The notes: generated by a model not told the origin, from the sequence alone. Shown: positions 5,612 through 37,350, numbered from the stretch's first letter. The stretch: DNA of 64,000 bases from Elusimicrobiota bacterium (GCA_023398295.1 JAEWSL010000010.1:2268-66267), one strand, 5' to 3'. Numbers and translations: made by a program.

Positions 5612-7711
5612 TTAAAAAATATCTCTTGTAAGGTTCTCGTCGCGCCACGGATAATAATAGCTGTCTATTTTCTTTTCGGTTTCAGTCTTCTTTTTTGCGC
5701 CGCATAAAATATTTATGCGGAAGGAAAACGAAAGGTTCTGGTTCCTGTCGCGCACGCCCACCATTAAACTTACATCGTGGAAATCTTTGTAGATCTTTAT
5801 GTGTTTTGAATACGCCCAAAGAGAGTCTTTATCCCAGTCAAAATCAACGCCCATATCGGCGCGCCAGGTCATATTTTTAGGCGCAATCATAAATTTTGAG
5901 GTAAAGAGGAAACTGTTCCTGTCGGTACTGTAATTTGTAACGCCGAAGTTAAAAGAGCTGCCGCTTGCGTCCTTAAATAAAGCGTTAAGAACAAAAGCCT
6001 GATTGCCGCCTGCGATATCGTATAAATTCTGCGCGTAAAAATTTGCGCCCGTCACAGGGGAAAAATAGCCGATTTCGCCCAAAAGCGGCGTAAAGCGGTT
6101 TTTAAGACGCCAGTTCTCCTCGGTATTTCTGAGGTCGTAGCCCGTGCCGACTCTGAAATAAAAATCCTGCGCCGGCATATAATAGTTTTGGATATAGACG
6201 GTATTTATTTCCTCGCCGTTATCAATTTCCCCCGTTTCGGCATTGACGTTTTGGGAGGTAAGCGCTCCTGCAGCCGTGCGGCGCATATATTTATAGCCGA
6301 CGTCAAGAAGGCCCGTTATGAAATCAGAGCGCAAGTTCAGCTGCGCGCCGTAGCGGGAAACAAAGCGGTCCTCGTTATTATTGGTAGGATCGCGCAAAAT
6401 AACGTCCTGATGATAAAAAGCCGTCGGGGTAAGCGTGAAATTGCGGTGCAGTTTGAAATCTTTTGAAACGTCCCACTTGCCGTTCAGATATTGCACATAG
6501 TCGTAATCTTCTATCTTGGTATTATTAAGCGAAAAGGAAACATTATTGACAAGCCCCGCGCCTTTGATAACAAAAGGGTTAAAAGATAAATCCACTTTGG
6601 GCAAAATTACTTCCGCGTTGGAATAAGTTTTATCGTCGGCGTTAAGTTCGCTCCGGTTAGAATAGCTTACGCGCAGCGTGCTTGCGCCGCTTTGCCTTAC
6701 TATGGAGGCGCGCGTTAATTTATCGGGAGAAACTACGTACGGATTTGAACGGAAAAAATCATCGTTAAAATCCGCGTCGGATACCGTTCTTGTTTCAAAC
6801 TGGCTGAAGTAAAGAGCGCCGTTTTTCTCATTAAGATTGTCCGAAGAGTCGTAAACCTCCCACCAATATCCGCCGTTTACGCCCCAGCGGTTTTCTTCTT
6901 TAACCTTATCGTAAATGCTGTAAGCTTGAAGAGAGCCGCGGAATTTTTGCGGGTCCAGATAAGCGGCCTGCGCGCCGTAGCCAAAGCCCGAACGCGTGTA
7001 ATAATCCAAATTAGCCGTAGCGCTGAAAGCCCCGCGCGAGAAAACATTTGAAGTAAGAAAGCCAAACCCCGTGTTATCGCTTTGGTCAAAATCAAGATAG
7101 GTGGTATAGAGGCGGTCCTCGTTCAAAGAACGGTAAACAAAAGGCAGATAAAAAACCGGTATTTTGCCTATCTTAACTACGGCGTTTGTGGCAAAAATGC
7201 GTTTGCCCGGTACAAGGTCGGCAGAACCCACTTCAAGCGTATAATGCGGATTTTCAAGCGAACAACAGGTAACTTTTGCGTCGCGCAAAATATATTTGCC
7301 GTCCCGGTTTTCAATGCTCTTGGCGGATAAAATCCTTATCGGTTTATAGTCGGCTGCTATATCCTGCATAAGCAGTCTGCGCGATTTAAGGTCAAAGCGG
7401 ATATTCTGAGAGGTAAATATGCCCTTTTCGTCTTCTATTACCGCGGGGCCTTTTGTGGCAAGCACCTGTTCGTTTATATAGAGCTGCAAGGCGTCCGCCT
7501 TGATTTTTTGCTTGGATTTAGAATCGTCAAAAAGTATTTCCACATTGCCTTTAAGTTCGGCAACGCCGTTTTCCTTATCGTAGAGCACTTGGTCTGCGGT
7601 AAAATAAATAAACTGGTTTTTTGTAGGGGAAGGCAAAGCAAAATCCTGCGCGCAAAAAGCGCGCAGGGCGCAAAAGAAAAACATAAATAATAAAAGAGTT
7701 TTATTTTTCAT
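5612..7711 (-). CDS. lptD: LPS-assembly outer-membrane protein LptD (OstA family)
   Basis: Signal peptide, an OstA-like N-terminal domain (FTADQVLYDKENGVAELKGNVEILFDD), then a large beta-barrel region with the LptD-like segment IGKIPVFYLPFVYRS. Confidence 0.75.
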   Translation of the reverse strand: MKNKTLLLFMFFFCALRAFCAQDFALPSPTKNQFIYFTADQVLYDKENGVAELKGNVEILFDDSKSKQKIKADALQLYINEQVLATKGPAVIEDEKGIFTSQNIRFDLKSRRLLMQDIAADYKPIRILSAKSIENRDGKYILRDAKVTCCSLENPHYTLEVGSADLVPGKRIFATNAVVKIGKIPVFYLPFVYRSLNEDRLYTTYLDFDQSDNTGFGFLTSNVFSRGAFSATANLDYYTRSGFGYGAQAAYLDPQKFRGSLQAYSIYDKVKEENRWGVNGGYWWEVYDSSDNLNEKNGALYFSQFETRTVSDADFNDDFFRSNPYVVSPDKLTRASIVRQSGASTLRVSYSNRSELNADDKTYSNAEVILPKVDLSFNPFVIKGAGLVNNVSFSLNNTKIEDYDYVQYLNGKWDVSKDFKLHRNFTLTPTAFYHQDVILRDPTNNNEDRFVSRYGAQLNLRSDFITGLLDVGYKYMRRTAAGALTSQNVNAETGEIDNGEEINTVYIQNYYMPAQDFYFRVGTGYDLRNTEENWRLKNRFTPLLGEIGYFSPVTGANFYAQNLYDIAGGNQAFVLNALFKDASGSSFNFGVTNYSTDRNSFLFTSKFMIAPKNMTWRADMGVDFDWDKDSLWAYSKHIKIYKDFHDVSLMVGVRDRNQNLSFSFRINILCGAKKKTETEKKIDSYYYPWRDENLTRDIF

Positions 7712-14783: not shown

Positions 14784-14817
14784 GCGCCGCGGCGGTTTTG
14801 TTTACACGCCGCGGCGC
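14784..14817 (-). other. GC-rich stem-loop between the lipoprotein gene and comM
   Basis: GCGCCGCGGCG-12 nt-CGCCGCGGCGC is a perfect 11-bp all-GC stem. There is no U-tract after it on the transcribed (minus) strand, so it is not a classical terminator. It may be an intercistronic stabiliser or attenuator. Confidence 0.35.
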
Positions 14818-14832
14818 GCGGCAAAAAACAAA

Positions 14833-15936
14833 TCAGATAAACAAAAGCTCAACGGAATCGGGCCCTGTTGCCACTATCGTAAAATTGGCGTAATACTTGC
14901 GTAAAATTTTAGCGGAAAATTCTTCCGAAGTGGAAATATTAGCCTGCACTTCAAAAGTGGCGGCGGAATTGCTGTATTTTACCAGGGAAAAATCTTCAAC
15001 TTCCCTCAGTTCGCGCAAAATGCTTTGAAGACGCTCCAGTCTTTCAACGGTATTTACGTCTTTTACTACAAAAGTGTAAGTCTTGGCGGAATTAACGGCG
15101 GAGTCTATGCTTTCCGCCACTTGTTTTGCGCTGTCTTCGCAGGCCGAGGAAAACGCCTTTTGCAAAGCTATATCCTCCACGGCGTCAAGCCCGCTTTGAC
15201 TTGAAGAGCTTTCCGCTATCACCTGATAATTGTTGACGGAAATTACCCTTAAATGCACGGACGCTCTCATAGGTTTGAAGGAAGAAGCAAAACGCTCCGC
15301 GTTTTCTATGGGAGAGGCGGAAGCTTCCGCCACGATAACAAAACGCGCGCCTTCTTTTTTTGCTTTATCTACCAAAGGCGTAGTATTGTCCAGATTATTT
15401 TGACTTAAATTGCCGCCGTCAAAAAGCGTATATGGATAATTCTTAAGGGCTTTATAAATGCCCTGGCGGCAATATTGTTTAAGGTAAACCTCATTGTTAA
15501 AAGTATCGCGCGAGGCTACCAAAATATTGGTCTTTCTGACAAAAGAACTGTCTTCCAGGGATTTTATCCTGGACGCCAAATCGCTCACCAGCACCATAAC
15601 GCGCGCTTCCAGATAGTATTTATCGCCTTTTCTGTAAGCGGTGTTTATATAGGCTTTTCTGACATAATTTTCGTACTTGGCCAAAATTTCCTGCTGGACT
15701 TCCTGCGGATACGCTACCTGGCTGGAAGAAGATAAAAACACCTTTACCGCATGTTCAACGGCATTATACTCGGCCTTTTGCATGGCAAGTTTTTTTATCG
15801 CCGAAGTATTGCCGTCCTGCCAGTCAACGGTGGCCGTGCCTATCACATACTCGCCCTCGCCTTTAGGGCCTATATTAAATCTTTGGCAGGCGCAAAGCAA
15901 AGCGACCGCGGCAAAGCACAAAAGAAGTTTTTTCAT
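14833..15936 (-). CDS. hypothetical lipoprotein (third gene of the P/Q-rich protein / DnaA-like ATPase module)
   Basis: MKKLLLCFAAVALLCAC is a lipobox with a Cys at the cleavage site. GGAGG RBS 8 nt upstream of the ATG at 15936 (the ORF track starts at 15957). The N-terminal part (GTATVDWQDGNTSAIKKLAMQKAEYNAVEHAV) is weakly LPP20/FlgT-like. No firm family assignment. Confidence 0.6.
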   Translation of the reverse strand: MKKLLLCFAAVALLCACQRFNIGPKGEGEYVIGTATVDWQDGNTSAIKKLAMQKAEYNAVEHAVKVFLSSSSQVAYPQEVQQEILAKYENYVRKAYINTAYRKGDKYYLEARVMVLVSDLASRIKSLEDSSFVRKTNILVASRDTFNNEVYLKQYCRQGIYKALKNYPYTLFDGGNLSQNNLDNTTPLVDKAKKEGARFVIVAEASASPIENAERFASSFKPMRASVHLRVISVNNYQVIAESSSSQSGLDAVEDIALQKAFSSACEDSAKQVAESIDSAVNSAKTYTFVVKDVNTVERLERLQSILRELREVEDFSLVKYSNSAATFEVQANISTSEEFSAKILRKYYANFTIVATGPDSVELLFI

Positions 15937-15975
15937 CAGTTTTATCCTCCGCCCCAAAAGGGCTTGTTTAAGCTT

Positions 15976-17391
15976 TTATCTGAGCACGTCGCCCAAAAGT
16001 TTTGTGTAAGACGACGGACGTTTAATCGTTTCCGGATCAATAATGGCGCAGCGTATCATCATAACCTCAAGCATATGCGTCAAAATATCATAGAAATTTT
16101 CCCTTATGGCGGGGGCAATGCCGACGCCGCTTGGGCCTAAAATAATCGCGCCTTTTAAGTTTTTATCGTCGCAGATATTGGCTATCTTAAAAGCCGCCGA
16201 AATAAGGTGATTCGTGGAGTAGGAGGATTTAAGCGTAAAGCGAAATCCGCCCTTTATGCCAAGCTCTTTGGCCCTCTCAATAATAGCAAAGGCAACCCAG
16301 TTTAACTTATCGGTATTATCCTGAGGGAAAAAGAAGCCGAAACGTCCCCAGTCAGTCCCCAGAGGGCGCGGAAGCGTCAGCACTTCTTTTACATCTTTGG
16401 TAACAATTTTGCTTCTGGAATCGTCGGTCATGCCGAGCATCTCCCCCAAAAGCTGGTCGTATCCGGGGGAGCTTACGCCGCTGTCAATTATCTTGCGGTT
16501 AAGCACTTTTACCCTGCGGATATTGCGCGCCACAGTGCCCAAATTTATGCCCGTCCCGCCGAAATAACTTTGCGTCTGCGTATCAGATAAACTGAGTTCG
16601 GCGTCAAAAACCATTTTGCTGTAAATCTTTGCAAGCCGCTGCGGACGCGGGGGTTTCATCTCCGATACCCAGCCCTGATCCAAACGGAAATTTACAAGCT
16701 CTTCAAAACGCGCCAGACTCTCGGGCGGATATTTGGAGGATATTATTATCTGCCTCTTCTCCTTCAAAAACCGGTTCAGAAGGTTTGAAATAAATTCCCT
16801 GTTATGATCGTTTACGGCGGTCAGATGTATATCGTCAATAATAAGCACTTCGGCATTATTAAAGAACTTTTCAAGTTTATCAATTTGCCCTTCTTCCACA
16901 AACCTCTGCACCCCGCGCGAAAAGCGCACGCCGTTTGTTATAAGTATGCGGTCCTGCGGCACTTTTTTGGAAAGGTCGTAACCCAAAGCGTTAAGAAAAT
17001 GGGTTTTGCCGGTGCCCGTATCGCCGTAGATAAAAAACGGGTTGTAAAGAGAACCTACGTTTTCACACAAAGACATCGCCGCCGCGTGAGAAAACCTGTT
17101 TGAGGCCATATCCATATTTTCAAAAGTAAATGTGGGGACAAGAGGAATTTCTATTGACCAGTTGTTTTTTTTGTAAACCTGCACGGCAGGGATATTTATA
17201 GTGTGGTCAAGGGAAGAATCCTCCGGCGTTTGGGCCGCGCGTTTTTCCTGATAGCGCTTGGGGCTTAGGGGCGTCGCCTTTTGCGGCGAAGACTGCTCTT
17301 GCTCAGGCCGCTTATCCTGCGGGGCCTGCTTCAACGCTTCACGCTGGGCGGTATAATCTACCATTTCATTTTCGTCATTATCTTGTATCAT
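15976..17391 (-). CDS. DnaA-type AAA+ ATPase paralog lacking DnaA domain IV, with an unrecognised C-terminal domain
   Basis: TFENMDMASNRFSHAAA, Walker A FIYGDTGTGKTHFLNALG, Walker B VLIIDDIHL, IIISSKYPPESL and MKPPRPQRLAKIY run parallel to DnaA/Hda domain III. There is no domain IV HTH. About 170 aa of unassigned sequence follow, and the N-terminal ~90 aa are disordered. AAGAGGA RBS. Confidence 0.7.
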   Translation of the reverse strand: MIQDNDENEMVDYTAQREALKQAPQDKRPEQEQSSPQKATPLSPKRYQEKRAAQTPEDSSLDHTINIPAVQVYKKNNWSIEIPLVPTFTFENMDMASNRFSHAAAMSLCENVGSLYNPFFIYGDTGTGKTHFLNALGYDLSKKVPQDRILITNGVRFSRGVQRFVEEGQIDKLEKFFNNAEVLIIDDIHLTAVNDHNREFISNLLNRFLKEKRQIIISSKYPPESLARFEELVNFRLDQGWVSEMKPPRPQRLAKIYSKMVFDAELSLSDTQTQSYFGGTGINLGTVARNIRRVKVLNRKIIDSGVSSPGYDQLLGEMLGMTDDSRSKIVTKDVKEVLTLPRPLGTDWGRFGFFFPQDNTDKLNWVAFAIIERAKELGIKGGFRFTLKSSYSTNHLISAAFKIANICDDKNLKGAIILGPSGVGIAPAIRENFYDILTHMLEVMMIRCAIIDPETIKRPSSYTKLLGDVLR

Positions 17392-17436
17392 ATATGTCCT
17401 CTTAACGCTTATTTTTCATTGCCGTCCAATTTTTAT

Positions 17437-20400
17437 TTAAGACTTTTCCCGCCCGCCTTGGCCTTCTTCTTCGTCATCATGGATTATAACCATTCTTCGC
17501 ACGCCAGATATCTTGCGCCGTTTTGGCGCGGCGGCGTTAAAAGCGGTTTGCGCAAGTTTCATGCTTTTGGCGTCGCTCAGCGGATTTACGTTTTGGGAAG
17601 CCTGCGGCCCTTTGGGCTTTATTGCCGCCCTAAAGTTTTCCGCCACTTTTTTGCCTATATTCTGCCTGAAATCCACTTGCGAAATGTCAGAGGTAATAAA
17701 AGTCCTCTCCGCAAGAAGCGGCTTTCCTACGGCGGTGTTCAAAGTAATAGCTTCCTCATCGCTGCGTCCTTCAAACTCCGAAAAAGGGTCCTTAGACGAA
17801 GCTGCTAAAACCGCGCCGGAGGGAGGAGGAGGAGGAGGTCCGAAAACGGTTTTCACGCTTAAGACATCTGTCATATCTTCCGAGCGTTTTTGTCTAAGAA
17901 ACTCTCTGGTAAGCTCGCCGAAACTTTGCAGGGAATCCTGCGTCTTACCTGCAGGCGGCCGCACGGGCTGTTGCTGCGGCTGCGGCTGCGGCGGCTGATA
18001 GGGCCTGTTCGCCGGATTATAGAAATTCATATTAGGCTGCGCGCCCTGTATAAAAGGATACTGAGGCGGCCCGCCCGCAGCCATAAAAGGCTGAGGCGCA
18101 GCTACCGACACAACCGGCGGCGGCGCGTAAGATAAAGGCACCGGCGCAATAGTGGCGTAAGCCAGCGGCGGCGTCGGCGCAGCGTAAAAGCCCTGGGCTA
18201 TACGCGTTAAAGCAGAAGGTTCTCTCCTCCTTGGCGGCAGAGGTTTAACAAAAACAGGCTTGTTTTGAGATTGGGGAAACTGCCTGCGCGGCAAAGAGTT
18301 ATCTTCCTTAGAAGAAAAATCGGAGATGCCCGGGGCTTTCTCCTGCCTTTGAGGGGGCAAAGACGGGCTTTCCCTTTTCTCTTGCCCATGCTCTTGAGAG
18401 AAAGATTCAATAACAGGAGGTTGCGCGCCTGTGTCCGAAACGCCGTTTTCGGACTGCTCTTCAAAAATTTTTCGCTCCGCCTCAGCGGGATTTGGCGCCG
18501 CTTCCGGTATAAAATCCTGCGGCGGTTTTGCGGAGTTTTGCGCCCCGTCTTGCCGCAATTCCTGTCCGTTTTCCTCTGTGTGTATATTTTGCTGAACTTC
18601 AGGCGTCATTTCGTTCAGCGGCACCGGCCGATGGGCGGGCGCATCCTGCGGACGCTCCTTTGAAAGAGGTCTGTGATCAAAAATAGGATCCGTATGCGCA
18701 ACCTCGGTAATAATGTTTTCTTTTTTTTGTTTGGAAACCGCTTCCGCCGCAAAAGGATCTTTGCCATGGGGATCTTTGTAAAATAAATTATCCGACAGAT
18801 TCGCTTTTGAGGAAATATCATTGTCCGCGCTAAAAGCGTTAAAGTCAACTATAGTTTGAGCGGCAAAAATATCTTCAATGGGCAAAGCCCCGCTTTCCGA
18901 AGCCGAAGTTTCCTCAAAAACATTATCCTGTAAAATAGACTGCCCCAGCTTGACTTGATTTGCCTCCACCCCTTTTATCGGGGAAGATTGTCCCTCCACC
19001 ACAATGCCGCGTTCAGCCTTACCCGCAGGCATGCTGAAAGGCTTTATCTGTACGGACTGAACATTTTGCATAGAAGGGGAGGCTGCCTGCTCCTCCATCT
19101 GGGAGAAAAGCGAATCTTGCGGAAGCTGTTTGACAAAAACTTCCCCCTTCTCCTGCGAGGACTGATTTTCTTGTTGTTCCGCAGAGGCGCTCTGCGCTTG
19201 AACCTGATTCTGTACCTTCGGCGGACGAATATGCTGCCGTACCGACTCAGAAGAAACCGTTTGCTGTGGTTGCTGTATCGGTTGCTGTATCGGCTGTTGT
19301 ACGGGTTGCTGCACAGGCGGCTGCACTTGCGCCTGAGGTTGTTGTATCGGCTGTTGCATCGGTTGTTGTACGGGTTGCTGCAGAGGCGGCTGCACTTGCG
19401 CCTGAGGTTGTTGTATCGGCTGTTGTACGGGTTGCTGTACAGGCTGCTGTACAGGCGGTTGTATATGTTGTTGAGGAGGTTGAAATTGTTGAACGTTAAA
19501 ATTTTGCGGGCCTGCGCTTTGCCACTGGGAACGTGCGGACGCAGATATCTTTACTTTTTGCGACGGCGCGGCTTTTTTTTGCTTGGGCGCGGAAGGCCGT
19601 ATAGCGTTAATTATTTTGGGTACTATATTTTTTATCTGTTCTTTTACCGGAGTGGAATAATATTCTCTTTTCCCGTCGGAGAAAATTTCAGTAGGCATTA
19701 CCTGCGGCGTAAACTCCGTAGTATTTGCCGCCGTCTGCGTTTGCTGCAATTGAGTGGGCGGGGGTGTATTCTGCGACGGCATTTGCGGCGGCATTTGCTG
19801 AAACTGCCCTCTTTGAGGCTGCTGTTGCTGCGGCTGCAAATAAGGCTGCACCTGCCCCTGAAACTGCTGAGGCGGCGCTGCTTGCTGAAACTGCTGAGGC
19901 GGAGCAAACTGCTGTTGCCCCTGGGGAGGTTGAACCTGAGACTGATACTGCCCAGCGTAAGGCTGAGGCGTTTGTCCCTGCGCAAAATGCTGCTGCCCTG
20001 GCGCCTGCATTTGCGGATAACCCTGAAAGGCGGCCGAAGACGGGGCGGGCCATTGCAGAGGAGTCTGCCCCTGCGGCATCTGCTGATATTGCTGGTTATA
20101 TCCCTGTGCAAAAACCTCCTGAGAGGTCTGTTCTTCCGGAGGGAATTTTGACATGTCCGGCGCTGTCGTCTGCGCCATTTTGCTGGGCATATGCGCGGAT
20201 TCGGCCTTTAAGTCGCCCGAAGCTGTTCTTGTAGAGAGATGTATAGGCACCGAAGAAGTGTCAAAAGTTTTTTTTGTCGTATTAAACTTATCAAAAATTT
20301 TGCTCATTAAACCTTTTGTCTGCGTTTGAGCGGAAACGCCGACGTCCTTCCCTTCAAAAGGCTGAGTCCAGCCCGTCCCGGTTCTGCTTCTTGCGTGCGG

Positions 20401-21165
20401 GTTTCTTATATCTACCGTGGGCATGTATCCGTAAGAATGCTCCGCCGCGCCGGACGCCGGCGCCGAAGGCGCCGCTTCCGATAAAATTTTAGGAGGGGAG
20501 GAAACCGCCCTTATATCAGCATCGTAAGGCGAAGGCCGTAAGGCGCCGTCTTCGGAATTAAGATCAATAAAAGTGCCGTCGCTTACGTCAAGGCTCGTTT
20601 CAATGTCAATAATGGTTTCTATATCGGCTAAATCTTTTTTGACTTCTAGCTGGCCTTCGGCCAAATTAAGATGAGAGGTTATTTCTTCCTTCTTATTTTG
20701 CCTGAGGGGAATTTGAGTTTGGGAAATTTTATCTTTTTCAATGCGGGCGACAGGCAGCTTTGTATCTTCGTGCGCGGCAGGCGCGTCGGCCTCCTCTCCA
20801 GACGGCGCTTTGCCGGAAAAACGCAAAGAAGGAGAATCAAAACTTAGCACTTCCCTTTTTGTTTTAAGCTCTGTGGCGGCAAGGAGGTCAAGCTCTTTTT
20901 CAATAGCGTCCGAGGAGGTAAAAACCTCCCCCTGGGAAACAAAATTTTCAACCTTGTTTCTTATTTCCTCAAGTTCGCCTTCTTCGGTAACATCGCGCAG
21001 TTCAAAAGTGTGGGTATAGGGCAATATGCGCCTGTCAACATAACTGCATAAAATGCCCATGTCCTGCTGGAGAAAAGCGGCGTCCTCCTCCGTACCCGAA
21101 ATAAGCAAAAGGTACTTGGAAGCGCCTGTTATAACATTTTCCCTGATTTCCCACTTAGTTATCAT
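17437..21165 (-). CDS. 1242-aa proline/glutamine-rich low-complexity protein (hypothetical)
   Basis: One uninterrupted ORF with a GGGGAAGAG RBS. A short, possibly folded N-terminus (MITKWEIRENVITGASKYLLLISG...) is followed by long P/Q/A/S-rich tracts and QQPX tandem repeats. No signal peptide or TM helix is evident. Confidence 0.8.
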   Translation of the reverse strand: MITKWEIRENVITGASKYLLLISGTEEDAAFLQQDMGILCSYVDRRILPYTHTFELRDVTEEGELEEIRNKVENFVSQGEVFTSSDAIEKELDLLAATELKTKREVLSFDSPSLRFSGKAPSGEEADAPAAHEDTKLPVARIEKDKISQTQIPLRQNKKEEITSHLNLAEGQLEVKKDLADIETIIDIETSLDVSDGTFIDLNSEDGALRPSPYDADIRAVSSPPKILSEAAPSAPASGAAEHSYGYMPTVDIRNPHARSRTGTGWTQPFEGKDVGVSAQTQTKGLMSKIFDKFNTTKKTFDTSSVPIHLSTRTASGDLKAESAHMPSKMAQTTAPDMSKFPPEEQTSQEVFAQGYNQQYQQMPQGQTPLQWPAPSSAAFQGYPQMQAPGQQHFAQGQTPQPYAGQYQSQVQPPQGQQQFAPPQQFQQAAPPQQFQGQVQPYLQPQQQQPQRGQFQQMPPQMPSQNTPPPTQLQQTQTAANTTEFTPQVMPTEIFSDGKREYYSTPVKEQIKNIVPKIINAIRPSAPKQKKAAPSQKVKISASARSQWQSAGPQNFNVQQFQPPQQHIQPPVQQPVQQPVQQPIQQPQAQVQPPLQQPVQQPMQQPIQQPQAQVQPPVQQPVQQPIQQPIQQPQQTVSSESVRQHIRPPKVQNQVQAQSASAEQQENQSSQEKGEVFVKQLPQDSLFSQMEEQAASPSMQNVQSVQIKPFSMPAGKAERGIVVEGQSSPIKGVEANQVKLGQSILQDNVFEETSASESGALPIEDIFAAQTIVDFNAFSADNDISSKANLSDNLFYKDPHGKDPFAAEAVSKQKKENIITEVAHTDPIFDHRPLSKERPQDAPAHRPVPLNEMTPEVQQNIHTEENGQELRQDGAQNSAKPPQDFIPEAAPNPAEAERKIFEEQSENGVSDTGAQPPVIESFSQEHGQEKRESPSLPPQRQEKAPGISDFSSKEDNSLPRRQFPQSQNKPVFVKPLPPRRREPSALTRIAQGFYAAPTPPLAYATIAPVPLSYAPPPVVSVAAPQPFMAAGGPPQYPFIQGAQPNMNFYNPANRPYQPPQPQPQQQPVRPPAGKTQDSLQSFGELTREFLRQKRSEDMTDVLSVKTVFGPPPPPPSGAVLAASSKDPFSEFEGRSDEEAITLNTAVGKPLLAERTFITSDISQVDFRQNIGKKVAENFRAAIKPKGPQASQNVNPLSDAKSMKLAQTAFNAAAPKRRKISGVRRMVIIHDDEEEGQGGREKS
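19261..19480 (-). repeat. in-frame tandem repeat (12-nt QQPX units organised in 69-nt higher-order units) inside the P/Q-rich gene
   Basis: GTACGGGTTGCTGCA[C/G]AGGCGGCTGCACTTGCGCCTGAGGTTGTTGTATCGGCTGTTG occurs at 19299 and again at 19368 (69-nt period). The surrounding sequence is reiterated GGTTGCTGTA[TC]-type 12-mers encoding QPVQQPVQQPIQQPQAQVQPP. Confidence 0.85.
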
Positions 21166-34356: not shown

Positions 34357-37350
34357 TTAGTCAAAATATCCTCTAAGCCCCACCTGCACCGCCACCCCTC
34401 TAACTCCCGCAAAATACGCCGAAACCTGCGCGTAGCCGGAATATCTTTCCCATAAAGTGTTTTCCACGCCGGCGTTAATTTCGCCGTAGGATTTAACTTT
34501 ATAATTGGGGAGGACGTAATTTTCCTGGTCGCGGATTTCAACGACGCCTTCGCTTATCAAACTGACTGCAAAGGAGCCGCCGACATACGGGTGCCAGGGG
34601 CCGTAATCTCTAAGCAATTTAAGCGCGGGGATAAATTGCAAATTATAAAACAGCGGCGTTTGCATATTTGCGCCCAAAGCCGTTTCATAATTCTGCGCGC
34701 TTACTATATTGTAGGACAGCATTAAAGAAGGAAGGATTTTTGTGCCGTCCTTGAAGATAAAAGAAGAATCTATCTTCCCGTTGGCCGATATGGAGAAAAT
34801 ATCAAAATCGTCTTTTTCGCCGTTAAGCGTGGCGCGTTGCGTGCCGTTTGAAAAATGCACTTCCGCGGCGGCAAGCAGATTATCGCGGTAAACCGTGCCC
34901 ATAAAGCCGGCCATAATACTGTTTTTGTTCATATTAAGGCCTTCTGTCCCCTGGGAATCGTTTACATAACCCGCAAAGACCGAAGGGATAAAATTAAAAC
35001 CGTGCTCAAGAAACATTATCGGGAAATCTAACCCTATATTTGCGCCGGAAGCGTTGTTTCTTACGTCGGTAAGGCCCTCGGTATAATCATGTTTCTGCGC
35101 GGCTACAAAAGGAACAAACCACAGCGTATGCCATTTCTTTTGGGTAACTTCACCGGTATAAAAAGCGCCGGGGTTTACAAAGGTATCGTCTTCCGAAAAA
35201 CTATAGCTGTTGCGCGCCCTGTAATATCTGCCGTCTTTGGAGAGCATAACGTCAAGCCTGTTAAAGAGCGTGTTTGCTATAAGCACGTTATTTACCGCCA
35301 TTGCGTTTTGCGCGACCGCCGCCGAGCGTATGGACGGCGTAAGACTGCCAGTTTTTGAAAGCACTATATTATGCGTATCGGGCATGGAAACGCTGTACTC
35401 ATAAACAGGGCCGTAAAGCTTTTCTACGGAAGTTGTAAGATCCATGGAATTTGAAATAGTAATCGGCGCGGTGGTATTTACGCCGGAGTCTTTAACAAGT
35501 CTTAAATAGCTTATATTAGCCGAACCCGCCCCGCCTGAAACTTCAATTGTATCGGCATCGGTAATAAAAGGATCTATATCCACGCTTAAATTGCCCCTTA
35601 CGCCTTGCGTATAATTATTAAGTTCAACATAACCTATCTGCCCGTTGACCATATTGATATCCGTGCCCGTTATGTTAAAAGCCGCGCCGTTAAAAGTCGC
35701 GCTGCTGGCAAAAAAGCTTATGGCCCCGCCGTAGATATTCATAGTGCCGTTAAAGCCGTCAAAGTCGTCGTAAAAATCTATGCGGCCGCTCCTGGGCGAA
35801 CCGACGGGAATATTTATATCCTCTGCCGAAGTGCCGTTAATATTTACAACGGAGCCCGCGTCTGAAGTTATACCGCCGTAGAAAATTATTTTATCGTCGC
35901 TGTTTAAGTTAAGCGTGCCGTTTGAAAGATGTATATCATTTTTATTTACTCCGGAAGAATCGGTATTCCCGCTGAAGATAACATCGTTCTTATCGTTAAT
36001 ATCTATAATGGTTAAAACGCCGTTTTGCAGATAAACCGCCCCGCCCTGCCCGCTCGCGCGGTTATTTGTAAAAGTCCCGCCTTTGGAAATAAGAAAAGTA
36101 CCCGAAGATAAATATATCGCGCCGCCGTCGCCGCCGGCGGTATTGCCGGTAAAAGAGGCGTTTTCCATCGTAATTGCGCTGCTTTGCGCGTATATTGCGC
36201 CGCCGTCGCCGCTTGCTTTATTTGAGGTAAAGATATTGCCCCCATTAAAGGCAGCCGTTCCGTTGCTTTCAATATAAACCGCACCGCCATTTACGGCTTT
36301 ATTGCTTGTAAAGACGGATTTATTTGCCGTTATATTGCCGCCGTCCCCCAAATATACTGCGCCGCCGTTTCGCGAAGCAGTATTAGACATAAAGGTTGAC
36401 GTTGAAACTATAAGAAGAGTATTGGAACTTGAGTAAATCGCCCCTCCGTCAAGCGCGGAGGTGTTGCCGTTAAAGTCGCTCAGCATTAAATTGGCGCCGG
36501 AAAAAGGTTCTAAATATATCGCGCCGCCCGAGCCGTTTTGCGCCTCATTTTGCGAAAATGTGGCGCTTGATACCACAAGCGCGTAAGAAGAATTTATCGC
36601 GCCGCCGTCCAAGACCGCGCTGTTTTGCGTAAACGTTGAGGTGGAAATTACAGCAGGCCCGTCAGCCCAAATTGCTCCTCCGATATCGGCGGAATTTAAC
36701 GTAAAAGAGGATGTCGTGACAGCCAGGAGGGAATTAGACGAGGGGCCGTAATAATAAATGCCGCCGCCCCCGCCGACTGCCGTGTCGGTGCTCGTGGAAT
36801 AAGCAAACGCTTCGTTGCCTGAAAAAGTTGAGGAGGAAATAATTGTAACCTGTCCGCTGTTTATAAACAGCGCTCCGCCTGTTGCTACCTGACTGCCGGC
36901 GCCGGTAACAGAAGAAATATTATTTTCAAAAGAAACCCCGTTTAAAGTTATTGTTGAAACCGCCGTCGCCGAAGACGGCAAAACTGAAATTGAAATGGCC
37001 CCCGCTTTGCCGGTATAAGCGTTTTGCCCGCCTAAAAAACCTATGTTTTTAACCGTAGCGGAGGATACGTTTATCTGTAAAAGAGATGTGGCCGTTGAAG
37101 TTGTAATATAATAAAAAGGGCGCGCCTCGGAAGTGCCGGAGCTGGTTATCGTCTTAACGCTTGATAAGACGGCCGGTTCCGTCATATGCACGTCAGTTAT
37201 AAGCGCGGCGACGTCAACCACCGGGTTATCAAGCACTATCTGCAAATCATTATCTATAACATAGACGGTAACGGGCGCCGCTTTGGGACATAAGGTTAAA
37301 GAGAGCACAAAAAATATACTTAAGATAAAACTTTTTATTTTAGCGTTCAT
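34357..37350 (-). CDS. polymorphic-membrane-protein (Pmp)-like autotransporter adhesin
   Basis: Signal peptide, at least 10 reiterations of the FxxN...GGA[IV][YWN] repeat (e.g. FTSNKASGDGGAIY, FTGNTAGGDGGAIY, FSQNEAQNGSGGAIY), then a C-terminal beta-barrel translocator region of about 300 aa. Confidence 0.8.
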   Translation of the reverse strand: MNAKIKSFILSIFFVLSLTLCPKAAPVTVYVIDNDLQIVLDNPVVDVAALITDVHMTEPAVLSSVKTITSSGTSEARPFYYITTSTATSLLQINVSSATVKNIGFLGGQNAYTGKAGAISISVLPSSATAVSTITLNGVSFENNISSVTGAGSQVATGGALFINSGQVTIISSSTFSGNEAFAYSTSTDTAVGGGGGIYYYGPSSNSLLAVTTSSFTLNSADIGGAIWADGPAVISTSTFTQNSAVLDGGAINSSYALVVSSATFSQNEAQNGSGGAIYLEPFSGANLMLSDFNGNTSALDGGAIYSSSNTLLIVSTSTFMSNTASRNGGAVYLGDGGNITANKSVFTSNKAVNGGAVYIESNGTAAFNGGNIFTSNKASGDGGAIYAQSSAITMENASFTGNTAGGDGGAIYLSSGTFLISKGGTFTNNRASGQGGAVYLQNGVLTIIDINDKNDVIFSGNTDSSGVNKNDIHLSNGTLNLNSDDKIIFYGGITSDAGSVVNINGTSAEDINIPVGSPRSGRIDFYDDFDGFNGTMNIYGGAISFFASSATFNGAAFNITGTDINMVNGQIGYVELNNYTQGVRGNLSVDIDPFITDADTIEVSGGAGSANISYLRLVKDSGVNTTAPITISNSMDLTTSVEKLYGPVYEYSVSMPDTHNIVLSKTGSLTPSIRSAAVAQNAMAVNNVLIANTLFNRLDVMLSKDGRYYRARNSYSFSEDDTFVNPGAFYTGEVTQKKWHTLWFVPFVAAQKHDYTEGLTDVRNNASGANIGLDFPIMFLEHGFNFIPSVFAGYVNDSQGTEGLNMNKNSIMAGFMGTVYRDNLLAAAEVHFSNGTQRATLNGEKDDFDIFSISANGKIDSSFIFKDGTKILPSLMLSYNIVSAQNYETALGANMQTPLFYNLQFIPALKLLRDYGPWHPYVGGSFAVSLISEGVVEIRDQENYVLPNYKVKSYGEINAGVENTLWERYSGYAQVSAYFAGVRGVAVQVGLRGYFD

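What the first reader, a model, noticed from the sequence alone, without database searches (positions are those of the whole stretch)
14833..21165. Compact three-gene module of a giant P/Q-rich protein, a DnaA-like ATPase without a DNA-binding domain, and a lipoprotein
Three same-strand genes are separated by only 45 nt and about 39 nt. Each has its own strong RBS. The module is set off from the downstream comM by an 11-bp all-GC stem-loop (14784-14817) and from the upstream deoC by a 46-nt gap. None of the three matches a characterised family that I can name beyond the AAA+ core of the middle gene. The combination of a huge low-complexity scaffold-like protein, a nucleotide switch of the DnaA/Hda clade, and a membrane-anchored lipoprotein resembles the architecture of polar or positional organiser systems such as scaffold + ATPase + membrane anchor. 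It lies immediately upstream of a DNA-transaction string (comM-dprA-topA-xerC). I do not know of a described system with this composition.
Basis: inference. Interest (0 to 1): 0.7.

Follow-up and report, generated by a model that had tools for sequence, protein, structure and literature searches.

The report
Split DnaA-like ATPase plus FlgT-like lipoprotein
The three genes are real. The "giant protein" and the "ATPase" are two halves of one protein found only in the phylum Elusimicrobiota. It derives from the replication initiator DnaA, has lost DNA binding, and is always followed by an exported lipoprotein shaped like a flagellar or pilus ring protein. Its function is unknown.

Summary
In detail: three minus-strand genes, 45-nt and 39-nt spacers, three Shine-Dalgarno (SD) sites, a GC hairpin and a 46-nt gap after deoC.

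- In 72 of 75 informative relatives, the giant protein's N-terminal domain, a variable disordered linker (349-1114 aa), the DnaA-type AAA+ domain and a new alpha/beta C-domain form one ORF.
- The window lineage split this gene inside the linker. The split is seen in three assemblies, and the giant half is under purifying selection (dN/dS 0.17).
- Walker A and B are kept. DnaA's sensor I, arginine finger, sensor II and DNA-binding domain are lost.
- The C-domain occurs in only 196 clusters out of 1.84 billion representatives, and always in this architecture.
- The lipoprotein has a FlgT-like fold (Foldseek 2e-11). It is exported, so it cannot anchor a cytoplasmic ATPase directly.

The pair sits in a block conserved across the phylum. 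Deep clades read pilT, IDR protein, this protein, GAF kinase, FlgT/LPP20/GNA1162/CsgG-like lipoproteins, comM, dprA, topA.

I read it as an undescribed DnaA-derived ATP switch, possibly tied to type IV pili or DNA uptake. That function is inferred only. It is a new variant of a known kind, of moderate interest.

The parts
20926..21165 (-). N-terminal globular domain (about 80 aa) of the 'giant' protein. It has the pattern beta-beta-alpha-beta-alpha and starts MIxxWEI...
   Evidence: It aligns collinearly with the N-termini of the fused DnaA-like proteins of relatives (alignment A5; tblastn 26-42% identity; HMM detection in 75 loci). dN/dS against L001 is 0.04. No Pfam hit and no PDB sequence hit.
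17437..20925 (-). Long low-complexity P/Q-rich linker of the giant protein (residues ~81-1242), including a 69-nt tandem repeat at 19264-19458 and the stop codon TAA at 17437-17439.
   Evidence: Composition by 100-aa block, and no hydrophobic segment (maximum KD19 1.09). Tandem repeats. Not conserved in sequence beyond L001; length 349-1114 aa and composition vary by clade. dN/dS 0.14-0.19, so it is still a maintained ORF.
17392..17436 (-). Fission junction. After the TAA stop comes a second in-frame TGA (17416-17418), then the SD AAGAGGA (17397-17403), then the ATPase ATG (17389-17391).
   Evidence: Sequence read. The same junction appears in an independent assembly, L087. L001 has a different stop position but the same SD and ATG. 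Fused orthologues L003-L012 and L020-L029 carry an in-frame Met preceded by GGAG-type SD at the aligned position.
16492..17136 (-). DnaA-type AAA+ module (DnaA domain III, including the lid) of the 471-aa protein, residues ~86-300. The gene spans 15976-17391. Residues 1-85 are the residual linker plus the conserved pre-AAA motif DHTI..P..KKxNW.IE.PL.PTFTF.
   Evidence: Pfam Bac_DnaA 7.5e-33; TIGR00362 141 bits, below the 344-bit cutoff. PDB B. subtilis DnaA 2.6e-26. Across 179 family sequences Walker A Lys is 99% and Walker B DD is 100/99%. The columns of DnaA sensor I Asp, the arginine finger (Arg only 11%) and the sensor II Arg (mostly Gly/Ser) are not conserved. A new invariant Lys (97%) appears in box VII.
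15979..16374 (-). Novel C-terminal alpha/beta domain (residues ~340-471) that takes the place of DnaA domain IV.
   Evidence: AF2 model, pLDDT 86, with four parallel strands in a (beta-alpha)4 layout. Only weak generic fold matches: Argonaute MID and lumazine synthase, E ~1e-3, TM ~0.5. No PDB sequence hit. A profile search of 1.84e9 representatives finds only 196 clusters, always at the C-terminus and always with this AAA+ where the protein is complete. Invariant P356, Y391, G419 and P420 lie at strand ends.
14833..15936 (-). Exported lipoprotein, 367 aa, with three domains and a FlgT-like fold. The N-domain is FlgP/LPP20-like and the middle domain is CsgG/TolB-N-like.
   Evidence: Signal peptide MKKLLLCFAAVALLCAC with invariant Cys17. 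AF2 pLDDT 84. Foldseek: FlgT 8z5n_0 1.8e-11 and 3w1e 2.7e-10 over ~373 columns, then CsgG, HpaA, PelC, GNA1162 and LptE. Weak FlgP profile hit, 0.0026. Found downstream of the ATPase gene in every locus whose contig extends that far, directly or after a 149-aa lipoprotein gene or a kinase gene. dN/dS 0.03.
14784..14817 (.). 11-bp perfect G+C hairpin in the 87-nt spacer before comM.
   Evidence: It has no U-tract and was not called by the terminator scan. A spacer of this length before comM is seen only in the window and L001.

Best explanation
WHAT IT IS (shown). The 'giant protein' and the 'ATPase' are the two products of a fissioned gene. Almost everywhere else in Elusimicrobiota this gene encodes a single cytoplasmic protein with the following layout:
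- a small N-terminal alpha/beta domain;
- a long, fast-evolving disordered linker;
- a DnaA-type AAA+ domain;
- a novel four-stranded alpha/beta C-domain in place of DnaA's DNA-binding domain IV.

The layout parallels DnaA domains I-II-III-IV, with a hugely expanded II and a replaced IV. In the window lineage a stop codon arose in the linker, just upstream of an SD and ATG. Both pieces are maintained by selection.

The third gene encodes an exported lipoprotein with the three-domain fold of FlgT. FlgT-type folds form periplasmic rings around outer-membrane machines: FlgT in the Vibrio flagellar H-ring, and TsaP around the type IV pilus secretin.

HOW IT MOST LIKELY WORKS (inferred).
- The AAA+ module still binds ATP, because Walker A and B are invariant.
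- It has lost DnaA's sensor I, arginine finger and sensor II. It therefore probably acts as a slow nucleotide-dependent switch or oligomeriser, not as a DnaA-like ATP-hydrolysing filament.
- The C-domain's conserved strand-end residues suggest a ligand- or partner-binding site.
- The N-domain, on its long tether or as a separate subunit here, recruits a second partner.
- The SD and ATG may pre-exist as an internal start in fused relatives.

LIKELY PROCESS (about 25% on its own). In deep clades the gene is translationally coupled to a PilT retraction ATPase, an IDR-plus-alpha/beta protein and a cytoplasmic GAF histidine kinase upstream and downstream. These are followed by FlgT/LPP20/GNA1162/CsgG-like lipoproteins, comM, a LysM protein, a BamD/ComL-like protein, dprA and topA. 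My best guess is that it is the cytoplasmic regulatory or assembly component of a type IV pilus / DNA-uptake pathway, and that the lipoproteins are that pathway's periplasmic part. Any link between ATPase and lipoprotein would be indirect, through co-expression or an unidentified transmembrane partner.
For: Fusion versus split:
- 72 loci fused, 3 split, 5 cut at a contig edge, out of 80 (ORF maps).
- Further independent splits occur at other positions in L068, L077 and L083.
- The window split is reproduced in L087 and L001.
- dN/dS: giant 0.17 (N-domain 0.04), ATPase 0.06, lipoprotein 0.03.
- An internal SD plus Met is conserved in L003-L012 and L020-L029, against an 11% background of SD-preceded Mets.

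Domain facts:
- Domain assignments.
- Motif frequencies in 179 family sequences.
- No transmembrane segment.
- C-domain model and weak fold hits.
- C-domain restricted to 196 clusters in one architecture: of 142 new representatives, 90 have N-domain + AAA + C-domain, 23 have AAA + C-domain, and 29 have only the C-domain. Of those 29, 28 are shorter than 260 aa, and the one longer protein (385 aa) also shows no AAA+ hit.

Lipoprotein:
- FlgT-like fold.
- Deep homologues at 23-24% identity over the full length, E 1e-21 to 1e-31.

Synteny:
- Elusimicrobiaceae.
- Deep clades.
- PilT identity: TIGR01420, 434 bits against a 319-bit cutoff.
- TsaP has FlgT-like domains and rings PilQ (bioRxiv 10.1101/2020.05.29.123786, read).
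Against: - There is no experimental or annotation evidence for any function.
- No transmembrane protein in the cluster could couple cytoplasm to periplasm.
- In Elusimicrobiaceae, including this window, pilT, the IDR protein and the kinase are absent from the locus. Its neighbours are metabolic genes (tpiA, deoC), and genes in these compact genomes are tightly packed regardless of function. Adjacency is therefore weak evidence.
- comM, dprA and topA also occur in non-competent bacteria, and dprA-topA adjacency is widespread (own knowledge).
- The internal-start idea rests on sequence motifs only, and in K/E-rich linkers GAGG-type motifs are favoured by composition.
- The N-domain fold was not modelled.
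- The similarity between the C-domain and the upstream IDR protein's domain is not significant (hhalign E 0.049).
Confidence: 0.45

Rival explanations
1. Neighbours only. The DnaA-like protein and the lipoprotein have no functional connection. They are adjacent because an ancestral gene order (deoC ... comM-dprA-topA) has been frozen in small, compact Elusimicrobiota genomes. The DnaA-like protein has an unrelated cytoplasmic role.
For: The block mixes sugar metabolism (tpiA, deoC), envelope genes and DNA genes, with spacers of a few nt throughout. The two proteins sit in opposite compartments and no transmembrane link is present. Accessory genes come and go between clades: the kinase, the 149-aa lipoprotein, GNA1162 and CsgG.
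Against: The order ATPase then FlgT-like lipoprotein survives down to 23-30% protein identity across at least four clades. In deep clades start and stop codons overlap across IDR protein / ATPase / kinase / lipoprotein. Order conservation that deep usually reflects co-function.
Confidence: 0.25
2. Replication control. The protein is a DnaA antagonist or modulator that works like Hda, or as a filament cap. Its AAA+ domain docks onto DnaA-ATP oligomers. Lacking an arginine finger and a DNA-binding domain, it terminates or sequesters them.
For: The AAA+ domain is clearly DnaA-derived: best hits are DnaA (141 bits) rather than Hda or DnaC, and the pre-AAA motif and box VII Gly are kept. The locus neighbours topA and xerC.
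Against: It fails the Hda model (45 bits against a 195-bit cutoff). There is no clamp-binding motif in the window proteins, and only 4 of 161 family members show a chance match. The arginine finger that Hda needs is lost. No context links it to dnaA, dnaN or oriC. Its immediate partners are a kinase, PilT and lipoproteins.
Confidence: 0.12
3. This is a three-part positional or polar organiser: a giant P/Q-rich scaffold, a DnaA/Hda-like nucleotide switch, and a lipoprotein membrane anchor.
For: The genes co-occur. A long IDR could drive condensate or scaffold behaviour. Deep-clade clusters also contain LysM and TPR proteins, which recall FimV/HubP-type organisers.
Against: Scaffold and switch are one protein in 96% of informative relatives. 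P/Q richness is clade-specific. The lipoprotein is exported and has a FlgT/CsgG-type fold, so it is not a cytoplasmic-face anchor.
Confidence: 0.1
4. Artefact or decay. The split is an assembly error or a recent nonsense mutation, and the giant ORF is a dying pseudogene.
For: Splits in L068 and L077 look like frameshifts with overlapping ORFs, which could be errors or decay.
Against: The same stop and SD appear in an independent assembly, and L001, at 93% identity, is also split. A 3.7-kb ORF stays intact with dN/dS 0.17, and 0.04 in the N-domain. The downstream cistron has its own SD.
Confidence: 0.03

Closest known systems
DnaA (bacterial replication initiator; Pfam PF00308 domain III)
   Same: The AAA+ core, with Walker A GxxGxGKTH and Walker B (L/I)IDD. 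The pre-AAA 'TF(D/E)N...NRFAHAA' motif. The box VII Gly. The overall layout of small N-domain, flexible linker, AAA+ and C-terminal domain.
   Different: No domain IV helix-turn-helix; an alpha/beta domain takes its place. No DnaA_N hit. The linker is expanded to 350-1100 aa. Sensor I Asp, the arginine finger and the sensor II Arg are not conserved. It scores far below the DnaA equivalog cutoff. In this lineage it is split into two genes.
Hda / HdaA (DnaA-related inactivator of DnaA, Proteobacteria)
   Same: A DnaA-related AAA+ protein without a DNA-binding domain.
   Different: Hda is about 230 aa, has an N-terminal beta-clamp-binding motif and needs its arginine finger (own knowledge). Here there is no clamp motif, the arginine finger is lost, extra N- and C-domains are present, TIGR03420 scores 45 against 195 bits, and the phylum differs.
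FlgT (Vibrio flagellar H-ring protein; PDB 3w1e, 8z5n)
   Same: Similar length (367 aa here; the FlgT chains are 352-356 aa) and a three-domain fold matched over the full length (Foldseek 1.8e-11 and 2.7e-10). The N-domain is FlgP/LPP20-like.
   Different: No sequence-level FlgT Pfam hit in 37 Elusimicrobiaceae members. Global TM is only ~0.32, so the domain arrangement differs. It is a lipoprotein. There are no flagellar genes in the window.
TsaP (type IV pilus secretin-associated ring protein)
   Same: A periplasmic accessory protein built from FlgT-like domains. In deep clades the locus contains pilT and a separate LysM protein.
   Different: TsaP has a LysM domain plus two FlgT-C-like beta-roll domains and is not a lipoprotein (10.1101/2020.05.29.123786). 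Here the match is to the whole of FlgT. No TsaP structure appeared among the top 50 Foldseek hits.
DnaC / DnaI / IstB helicase-loader AAA+ proteins
   Same: They belong to the same initiator/loader AAA+ clade, and the window ATPase gives weak hits to them (IstB 1.3e-11, DnaI 1.3e-9). A hexameric helicase gene (comM) lies nearby.
   Different: Scores are far below the cutoffs. There is no helicase-binding N-domain. Lipoprotein and kinase genes separate it from comM.

Membership tests
DnaA (TIGR00362 / PF00308 + PF08299) | AAA+ domain III with Walker A and Walker B | tested here: met
   PF00308 7.5e-33. Walker A Lys 99% and Walker B DD 100/99% across 179 family sequences.
DnaA (TIGR00362 / PF08299) | C-terminal DNA-binding domain IV (helix-turn-helix, PF08299) | tested here: not met
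   No PF08299 hit at E<=1. The C-terminus models as a four-stranded alpha/beta domain.
DnaA | Box VII arginine finger and sensor II arginine | tested here: not met
   The arginine-finger column has Arg in 11% of family members, against 70% Arg and 20% Lys in 10 canonical DnaAs. The sensor II column is mostly Gly/Ser, against Arg 100%.
DnaA | Whole-protein score above the equivalog cutoff | tested here: not met
   TIGR00362 scores 141.5 bits against a cutoff of 343.9.
Hda (TIGR03420) | Score above cutoff, an N-terminal clamp-binding motif (QL[SP]LPL-type) and a functional arginine finger | tested here: not met
   45.3 bits against 194.8. No motif in the window proteins, and a match in only 4 of 161 family members. 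Arginine finger lost.
Bacterial lipoprotein (SPase II substrate) | N-terminal signal peptide with a lipobox Cys | tested here: met
   MKKLLLCFAAVALLCAC; Cys17 is invariant in 37 homologues; hydrophobic maximum at residues 4-22. No dedicated predictor was run.
FlgT | Three-domain FlgT fold (N, M, C) | tested here: met
   Foldseek 8z5n_0 1.8e-11 and 3w1e 2.7e-10, ~373 aligned columns, but TM 0.31-0.33.
FlgT | Sequence membership (Pfam FlgT_N / FlgT_M / FlgT_C) | tested here: not met
   No FlgT family among hits at E<=1 for 37 members. Only a deep-clade homologue gives FlgT_N at 0.003, below the cutoff.
FlgT | Flagellar gene context, or being part of the H-ring | tested here: not met
   No flagellar genes among the annotated ORFs of the 64-kb window or in the related loci. 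Genome-wide absence cannot be tested with these tools.
DnaC/IstB helper ATPases | Score above the family cutoff | tested here: not met
   IS21_help_AAA 44.6 bits against 200; DnaI 37.8 against 228; DnaC 20.8 against 357.
Anti-phage defence systems (PADLOC) | A match to a defence-system protein model beyond the P-loop | tested here: not met
   Only matches driven by the P-loop or by low complexity. The locus is a conserved core-genome block.

The most novel reading that the evidence does not exclude
A phylum-wide DnaA-derived ATP switch (N-domain, giant IDR, AAA+, novel ligand-binding C-domain) is the cytoplasmic organiser of a previously unrecognised envelope-spanning apparatus. That apparatus would be built from PilT, a soluble GAF kinase and FlgT/FlgP/GNA1162/CsgG-like periplasmic ring lipoproteins. 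It would couple type IV pilus retraction and DNA uptake to ComM/DprA processing. This would be a replication-initiator fold repurposed for competence or for positioning a cell-envelope machine.
Probability: 0.15. Interest if true: 0.8.

Novelty: new variant of a known kind. Interest (0 to 1): 0.45.

Why it matters
DnaA-type AAA+ modules are known almost only from replication initiation (DnaA), its control (Hda) and helicase or transposase helpers (DnaC, DnaI, IstB). Here a whole phylum keeps a DnaA paralogue that has dropped DNA binding and the canonical hydrolysis residues. It has gained two unclassified domains and one of the longest disordered linkers seen in a bacterial AAA+ protein. It travels with a FlgT-like lipoprotein and, in deep clades, with PilT and a histidine kinase.

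Working out its role would show what else the initiator fold can do. It could also reveal how a poorly studied, mostly uncultured phylum organises pili, competence or its envelope.

The repeated, tolerated fission inside the linker, and the possible internal start, make it a natural experiment on whether such tethers are needed in cis.

For annotation: these genes are currently labelled 'chromosomal replication initiator protein', 'DnaA/Hda family protein' or 'ATP-binding protein'. The first two labels are misleading.

Tried and rejected
- Pfam and NCBIfam on all three proteins gave only the Bac_DnaA core.
- Rfam on the whole window found a single tRNA.
- PADLOC gave only P-loop or low-complexity noise, so a defence system is rejected.
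- PDB sequence profiles for the N-domain and the C-domain found nothing.
- Foldseek on the C-domain gave only generic Rossmann/flavodoxin-like matches (Argonaute MID, lumazine synthase; E ~1e-3, TM ~0.5). This is not used as homology.
- I tested whether the alpha/beta domain of the upstream 'X257' IDR protein is homologous to the C-domain. hhalign gave E 0.049 over 111 collinear columns: suggestive, but not accepted.
- A word-indexed search with the N-domain profile returned only 11 short fragments and was uninformative.
- A scan for the Hda-type clamp motif was negative.
- The hairpin as an intrinsic terminator is rejected: no U-tract, not called by the scan, z -1.37. The hairpin as a repeated REP-like element is also rejected: no other exact copy in the window.
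- Literature searches for Elusimicrobium + DnaA, for DnaA paralogues, and for FlgT/LPP20 outside flagella found no description of this system.


Full report
1. OBSERVATION

The three minus-strand ORFs exist as described:
- the giant protein, 17437-21165 (1242 aa);
- the DnaA-like ATPase, 15976-17391 (471 aa);
- the lipoprotein, 14833-15957 by mechanical ORF calling.

The lipoprotein's real start is almost certainly the ATG at 15936, which follows GGAGGA. That start gives 367 aa, and its homologues are 367-370 aa.

The spacers are 45 nt, 39 nt and, after deoC, 46 nt. All three starts have Shine-Dalgarno (SD) sequences.

The giant protein is Q 13% and P 11% overall, and up to Q 34% / P 18% in its middle. 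It carries a 69-nt tandem repeat.

The hairpin at 14784-14817 is a perfect 11-bp G+C stem. It has no U-tract, the terminator scan did not call it, and it folds no better than composition-matched shuffles (z -1.37).

The flanking genes are tpiA and deoC upstream, and comM, dprA, topA, xerC, a ROK kinase, an LptC-related protein and tdk downstream. The rest of the window is ordinary chromosomal housekeeping with no flagellar genes.

2. ORGANISM AND FAMILY

Homologues of the ATPase and of the lipoprotein come almost entirely from Elusimicrobiota. A few records carry other labels and are probably mis-binned. An exact copy of the lipoprotein occurs in an independent assembly (L087). The closest genome is an uncultured Elusimicrobium MAG (L001, 93% identity).

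3. THE KEY FINDING: GIANT PROTEIN AND ATPASE ARE ONE GENE ELSEWHERE

Aligning ATPase homologues showed that the longer ones begin with a ~75-aa domain (MIxxWEI...LLIxG...DA...KKL...FEL...KIR). This domain matches the N-terminus of the window's giant protein.

I scanned one genome per species and called ORFs and HMM hits in 80 loci. The results:
- 72 loci have the N-domain and the AAA+ domain in one stop-to-stop ORF of about 860-1620 aa.
- 5 loci are cut by a contig end.
- 3 loci are split: L001, L068 and L077. L083, a deep-clade locus, is a further split with an ATGA overlap.

The region between the two domains has no conserved sequence. Its length runs from 349 to 1114 aa. Its composition differs by clade: A/E/P/K-rich, K/E-rich or P/Q-rich. 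It behaves as an intrinsically disordered tether. Neither window protein has a hydrophobic segment that could span a membrane.

4. THE SPLIT IS REAL AND SELECTED

In the window the giant ORF ends with TAA. A second in-frame TGA follows 18 nt later, and the ATPase has its own AAGAGGA SD. The same junction is present in L087. L001 stops at a different place but keeps the same SD and ATG.

dN/dS between the window and L001:

| Gene or region | dN/dS |
|---|---|
| Giant gene, whole | 0.17 |
| Giant N-domain | 0.04 |
| Giant linker | 0.14-0.19 |
| ATPase | 0.06 |
| Lipoprotein | 0.03 |

So this is gene fission, not decay or misassembly.

The fused orthologues of the two sister clades (L003-L012 and L020-L029) carry an in-frame Met at the position aligned with the window ATPase start. 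A GGAG/GAGG-type motif sits 8-12 nt upstream of it. Only 11% of all linker Met codons have such a motif. I infer, without proof, that an internal start producing a short AAA+/C-domain isoform predates the fission.

5. THE AAA+ MODULE

It is DnaA-derived. Its best matches are DnaA models and B. subtilis DnaA structures, well ahead of Hda, DnaC, DnaI and IstB. It nevertheless fails every equivalog cutoff.

I aligned 179 family members against 10 canonical DnaAs:
- Walker A Lys is present in 99% and Walker B Asp-Asp in 100/99%.
- The DnaA sensor I Asp column is K/A/V/L.
- The arginine-finger column is Q/H/Y/F, with Arg in only 11%.
- The sensor II Arg column is G/S.
- A new Lys in box VII is 97% conserved.

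There is no beta-clamp-binding motif. My inference is that ATP binding is retained but DnaA- or Hda-type inter-subunit hydrolysis is not.

6. THE C-DOMAIN

Residues ~340-471 model confidently (pLDDT 86) as a (beta-alpha)4 parallel sheet. Only generic, weak fold neighbours turn up, and there are no PDB sequence relatives.

A profile search of 1.84 billion representative proteins finds it in only 196 clusters, always at the C-terminus. Among 142 new representatives, 90 carry N-domain + AAA+ + C-domain and 23 carry AAA+ + C-domain. The other 29 show only the C-domain; 28 of them are shorter than 260 aa and one is 385 aa. The C-domain is therefore the signature of one closed family. The invariant residues P356, Y391, G419 and P420 sit at the C-terminal ends of strands, the usual binding edge of such folds. 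That reading is an inference.

7. THE LIPOPROTEIN

It has a signal peptide and an invariant lipobox Cys17. The AF2 model (pLDDT 84) has three domains.

Foldseek's best matches are FlgT over the full length (1.8e-11 and 2.7e-10). Next come CsgG, HpaA, PelC, GNA1162 and LptE. A profile of the family weakly hits FlgP (0.0026). No FlgT Pfam model is matched at sequence level.

FlgT-type domains also build TsaP, the ring around the type IV pilus secretin (10.1101/2020.05.29.123786).

Because the lipoprotein is exported, it cannot be a direct membrane anchor for a cytoplasmic ATPase.

8. CONTEXT ACROSS THE PHYLUM

Elusimicrobiaceae. The order tpiA, deoC, [N-IDR-AAA-C], lipoprotein, comM, dprA, topA holds in essentially all 80 loci. 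Spacers are a few nt long or overlap. One large clade (L028-L080) has an extra 149-aa LPP20-like lipoprotein gene between the ATPase and lipoprotein genes. The window clade lacks it.

Deeper clades (23-33% identity) show the following order, with overlapping stops and starts:
- a sugar-phosphate microcompartment locus ending in deoC;
- pilT (TIGR01420, 434 bits);
- a P-rich IDR protein with a C-terminal alpha/beta domain;
- [N-IDR-AAA-C];
- a soluble GAF-HisKA-HATPase kinase;
- an LPP20-like lipoprotein (present in some);
- the FlgT-like lipoprotein;
- GNA1162-like and CsgG/LpoB-like lipoproteins (present in some);
- comM;
- a LysM protein and a BamD/YfiO-like protein (present in some);
- an HTH protein;
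- dprA and topA.

The conserved core is the DnaA-like protein plus the FlgT-like lipoprotein, followed by comM and usually dprA-topA.

9. INTERPRETATION

Firmly shown:
- the identity and anatomy of the proteins;
- the fission;
- restriction to this phylum;
- the conserved pairing with the lipoprotein.

Inferred:
- The protein acts as an ATP-binding switch or oligomeriser on a long tether.
- Its C-domain binds a ligand or a partner.
- An internal start exists in fused relatives.

Speculative (about 25%): the process is linked to type IV pili or DNA uptake. PilT, ComM and DprA are all natural-transformation functions, and FlgT-like, LysM and BamD/ComL-like proteins accompany pilus secretins.

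Rivals:
- Pure synteny with no functional link (about 25%).
- A replication-control role like Hda or a DnaA filament cap (about 12%).
- An artefact (about 3%).

10. NOVELTY

No curated family covers the N-domain, the C-domain or the lipoprotein. Pipelines label the gene 'chromosomal replication initiator protein', 'DnaA/Hda family protein' or 'ATP-binding protein'. The literature searches found no description.

It is a new variant of a known kind: a DnaA-clade AAA+ protein with a new architecture and new partners. It is not a categorically new system. Interest is moderate because the function remains unknown. The finding does give clear, testable hypotheses in cultured relatives.

Noticed in passing
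L028-L080, e.g. L031:11248-11697; L086:3774-4223; L084:10952-11404: A conserved ~149-aa lipoprotein gene lies between the DnaA-like gene and the FlgT-like lipoprotein gene in most Elusimicrobiaceae and in deep clades. It gives a weak LPP20/FlgP-like hit (E 9e-4). It is absent from the window clade (L001-L027). Its signal peptide (MKKLTLCFVCALALCAC) closely resembles that of the window lipoprotein, which hints at a deletion that joined the two genes.
   Followed up: partly
L003-L012 and L020-L029 (e.g. L003, aa 1048 of the fused ORF); window 17389-17403: There is an in-frame Met with a GGAG-type SD 8-12 nt upstream inside the disordered linker of fused orthologues. It aligns with the window ATPase start. 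This may be an internal translation start that gives a short isoform and that predates the gene fission.
   Followed up: partly
L083-L085, L088-L092, L095 (e.g. L084:6148-7998): Deep-clade loci carry a bona fide pilT (TIGR01420, 434 bits) and a P-rich IDR protein with a C-terminal alpha/beta domain immediately upstream of the DnaA-like gene. A soluble GAF histidine kinase lies immediately downstream. None of these is at the window locus. The IDR protein's domain resembles the ATPase C-domain only weakly (hhalign E 0.049).
   Followed up: partly
L083:7348-9179; L068:7443-11251; L077:5666-9579: The same gene has split independently at other linker positions. L083 has a 4-nt ATGA overlap. L068 (the Elusimicrobium posterum isolate genome) and L077 have frameshift-like overlapping ORFs. 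It is unclear whether these are real fissions, programmed frameshifts or sequencing errors.
   Followed up: no
L083-L086, L088, L089 upstream regions: In deep clades the deoC upstream of the module belongs to a bacterial microcompartment locus (BMC shell proteins, EutN, aldehyde dehydrogenase, RpiB, PTAC). In the window only deoC and tpiA remain, so the microcompartment appears to have been lost while the gene order was kept.
   Followed up: no
window 18955-20151 (+): A 398-aa antisense ORF rich in L and R lies opposite the P/Q-rich region. It is a mirror artefact of the CAG/CCG-rich coding strand and is not a gene.
   Followed up: partly
window 34357-37350 (-): A 997-aa protein with Chlamydia polymorphic-membrane-protein (PMP) repeats (Pfam 4e-25). 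It is probably an autotransporter-like surface protein.
   Followed up: no
window 5612-7711 (-): A 699-aa protein whose only hit is a short LptC-related segment (residues 37-114). It is unusually long for an LptC family member.
   Followed up: no
L040 (UQJU01000009.1) and L060 (CAVKWQ010000016.1); protein P0050: Contigs carrying the full Elusimicrobiaceae syntenic block are labelled 'uncultured Spirochaetes' and 'Muribaculaceae', and one protein is labelled Alphaproteobacteria. These are probably binning or labelling errors in the public records.
   Followed up: no
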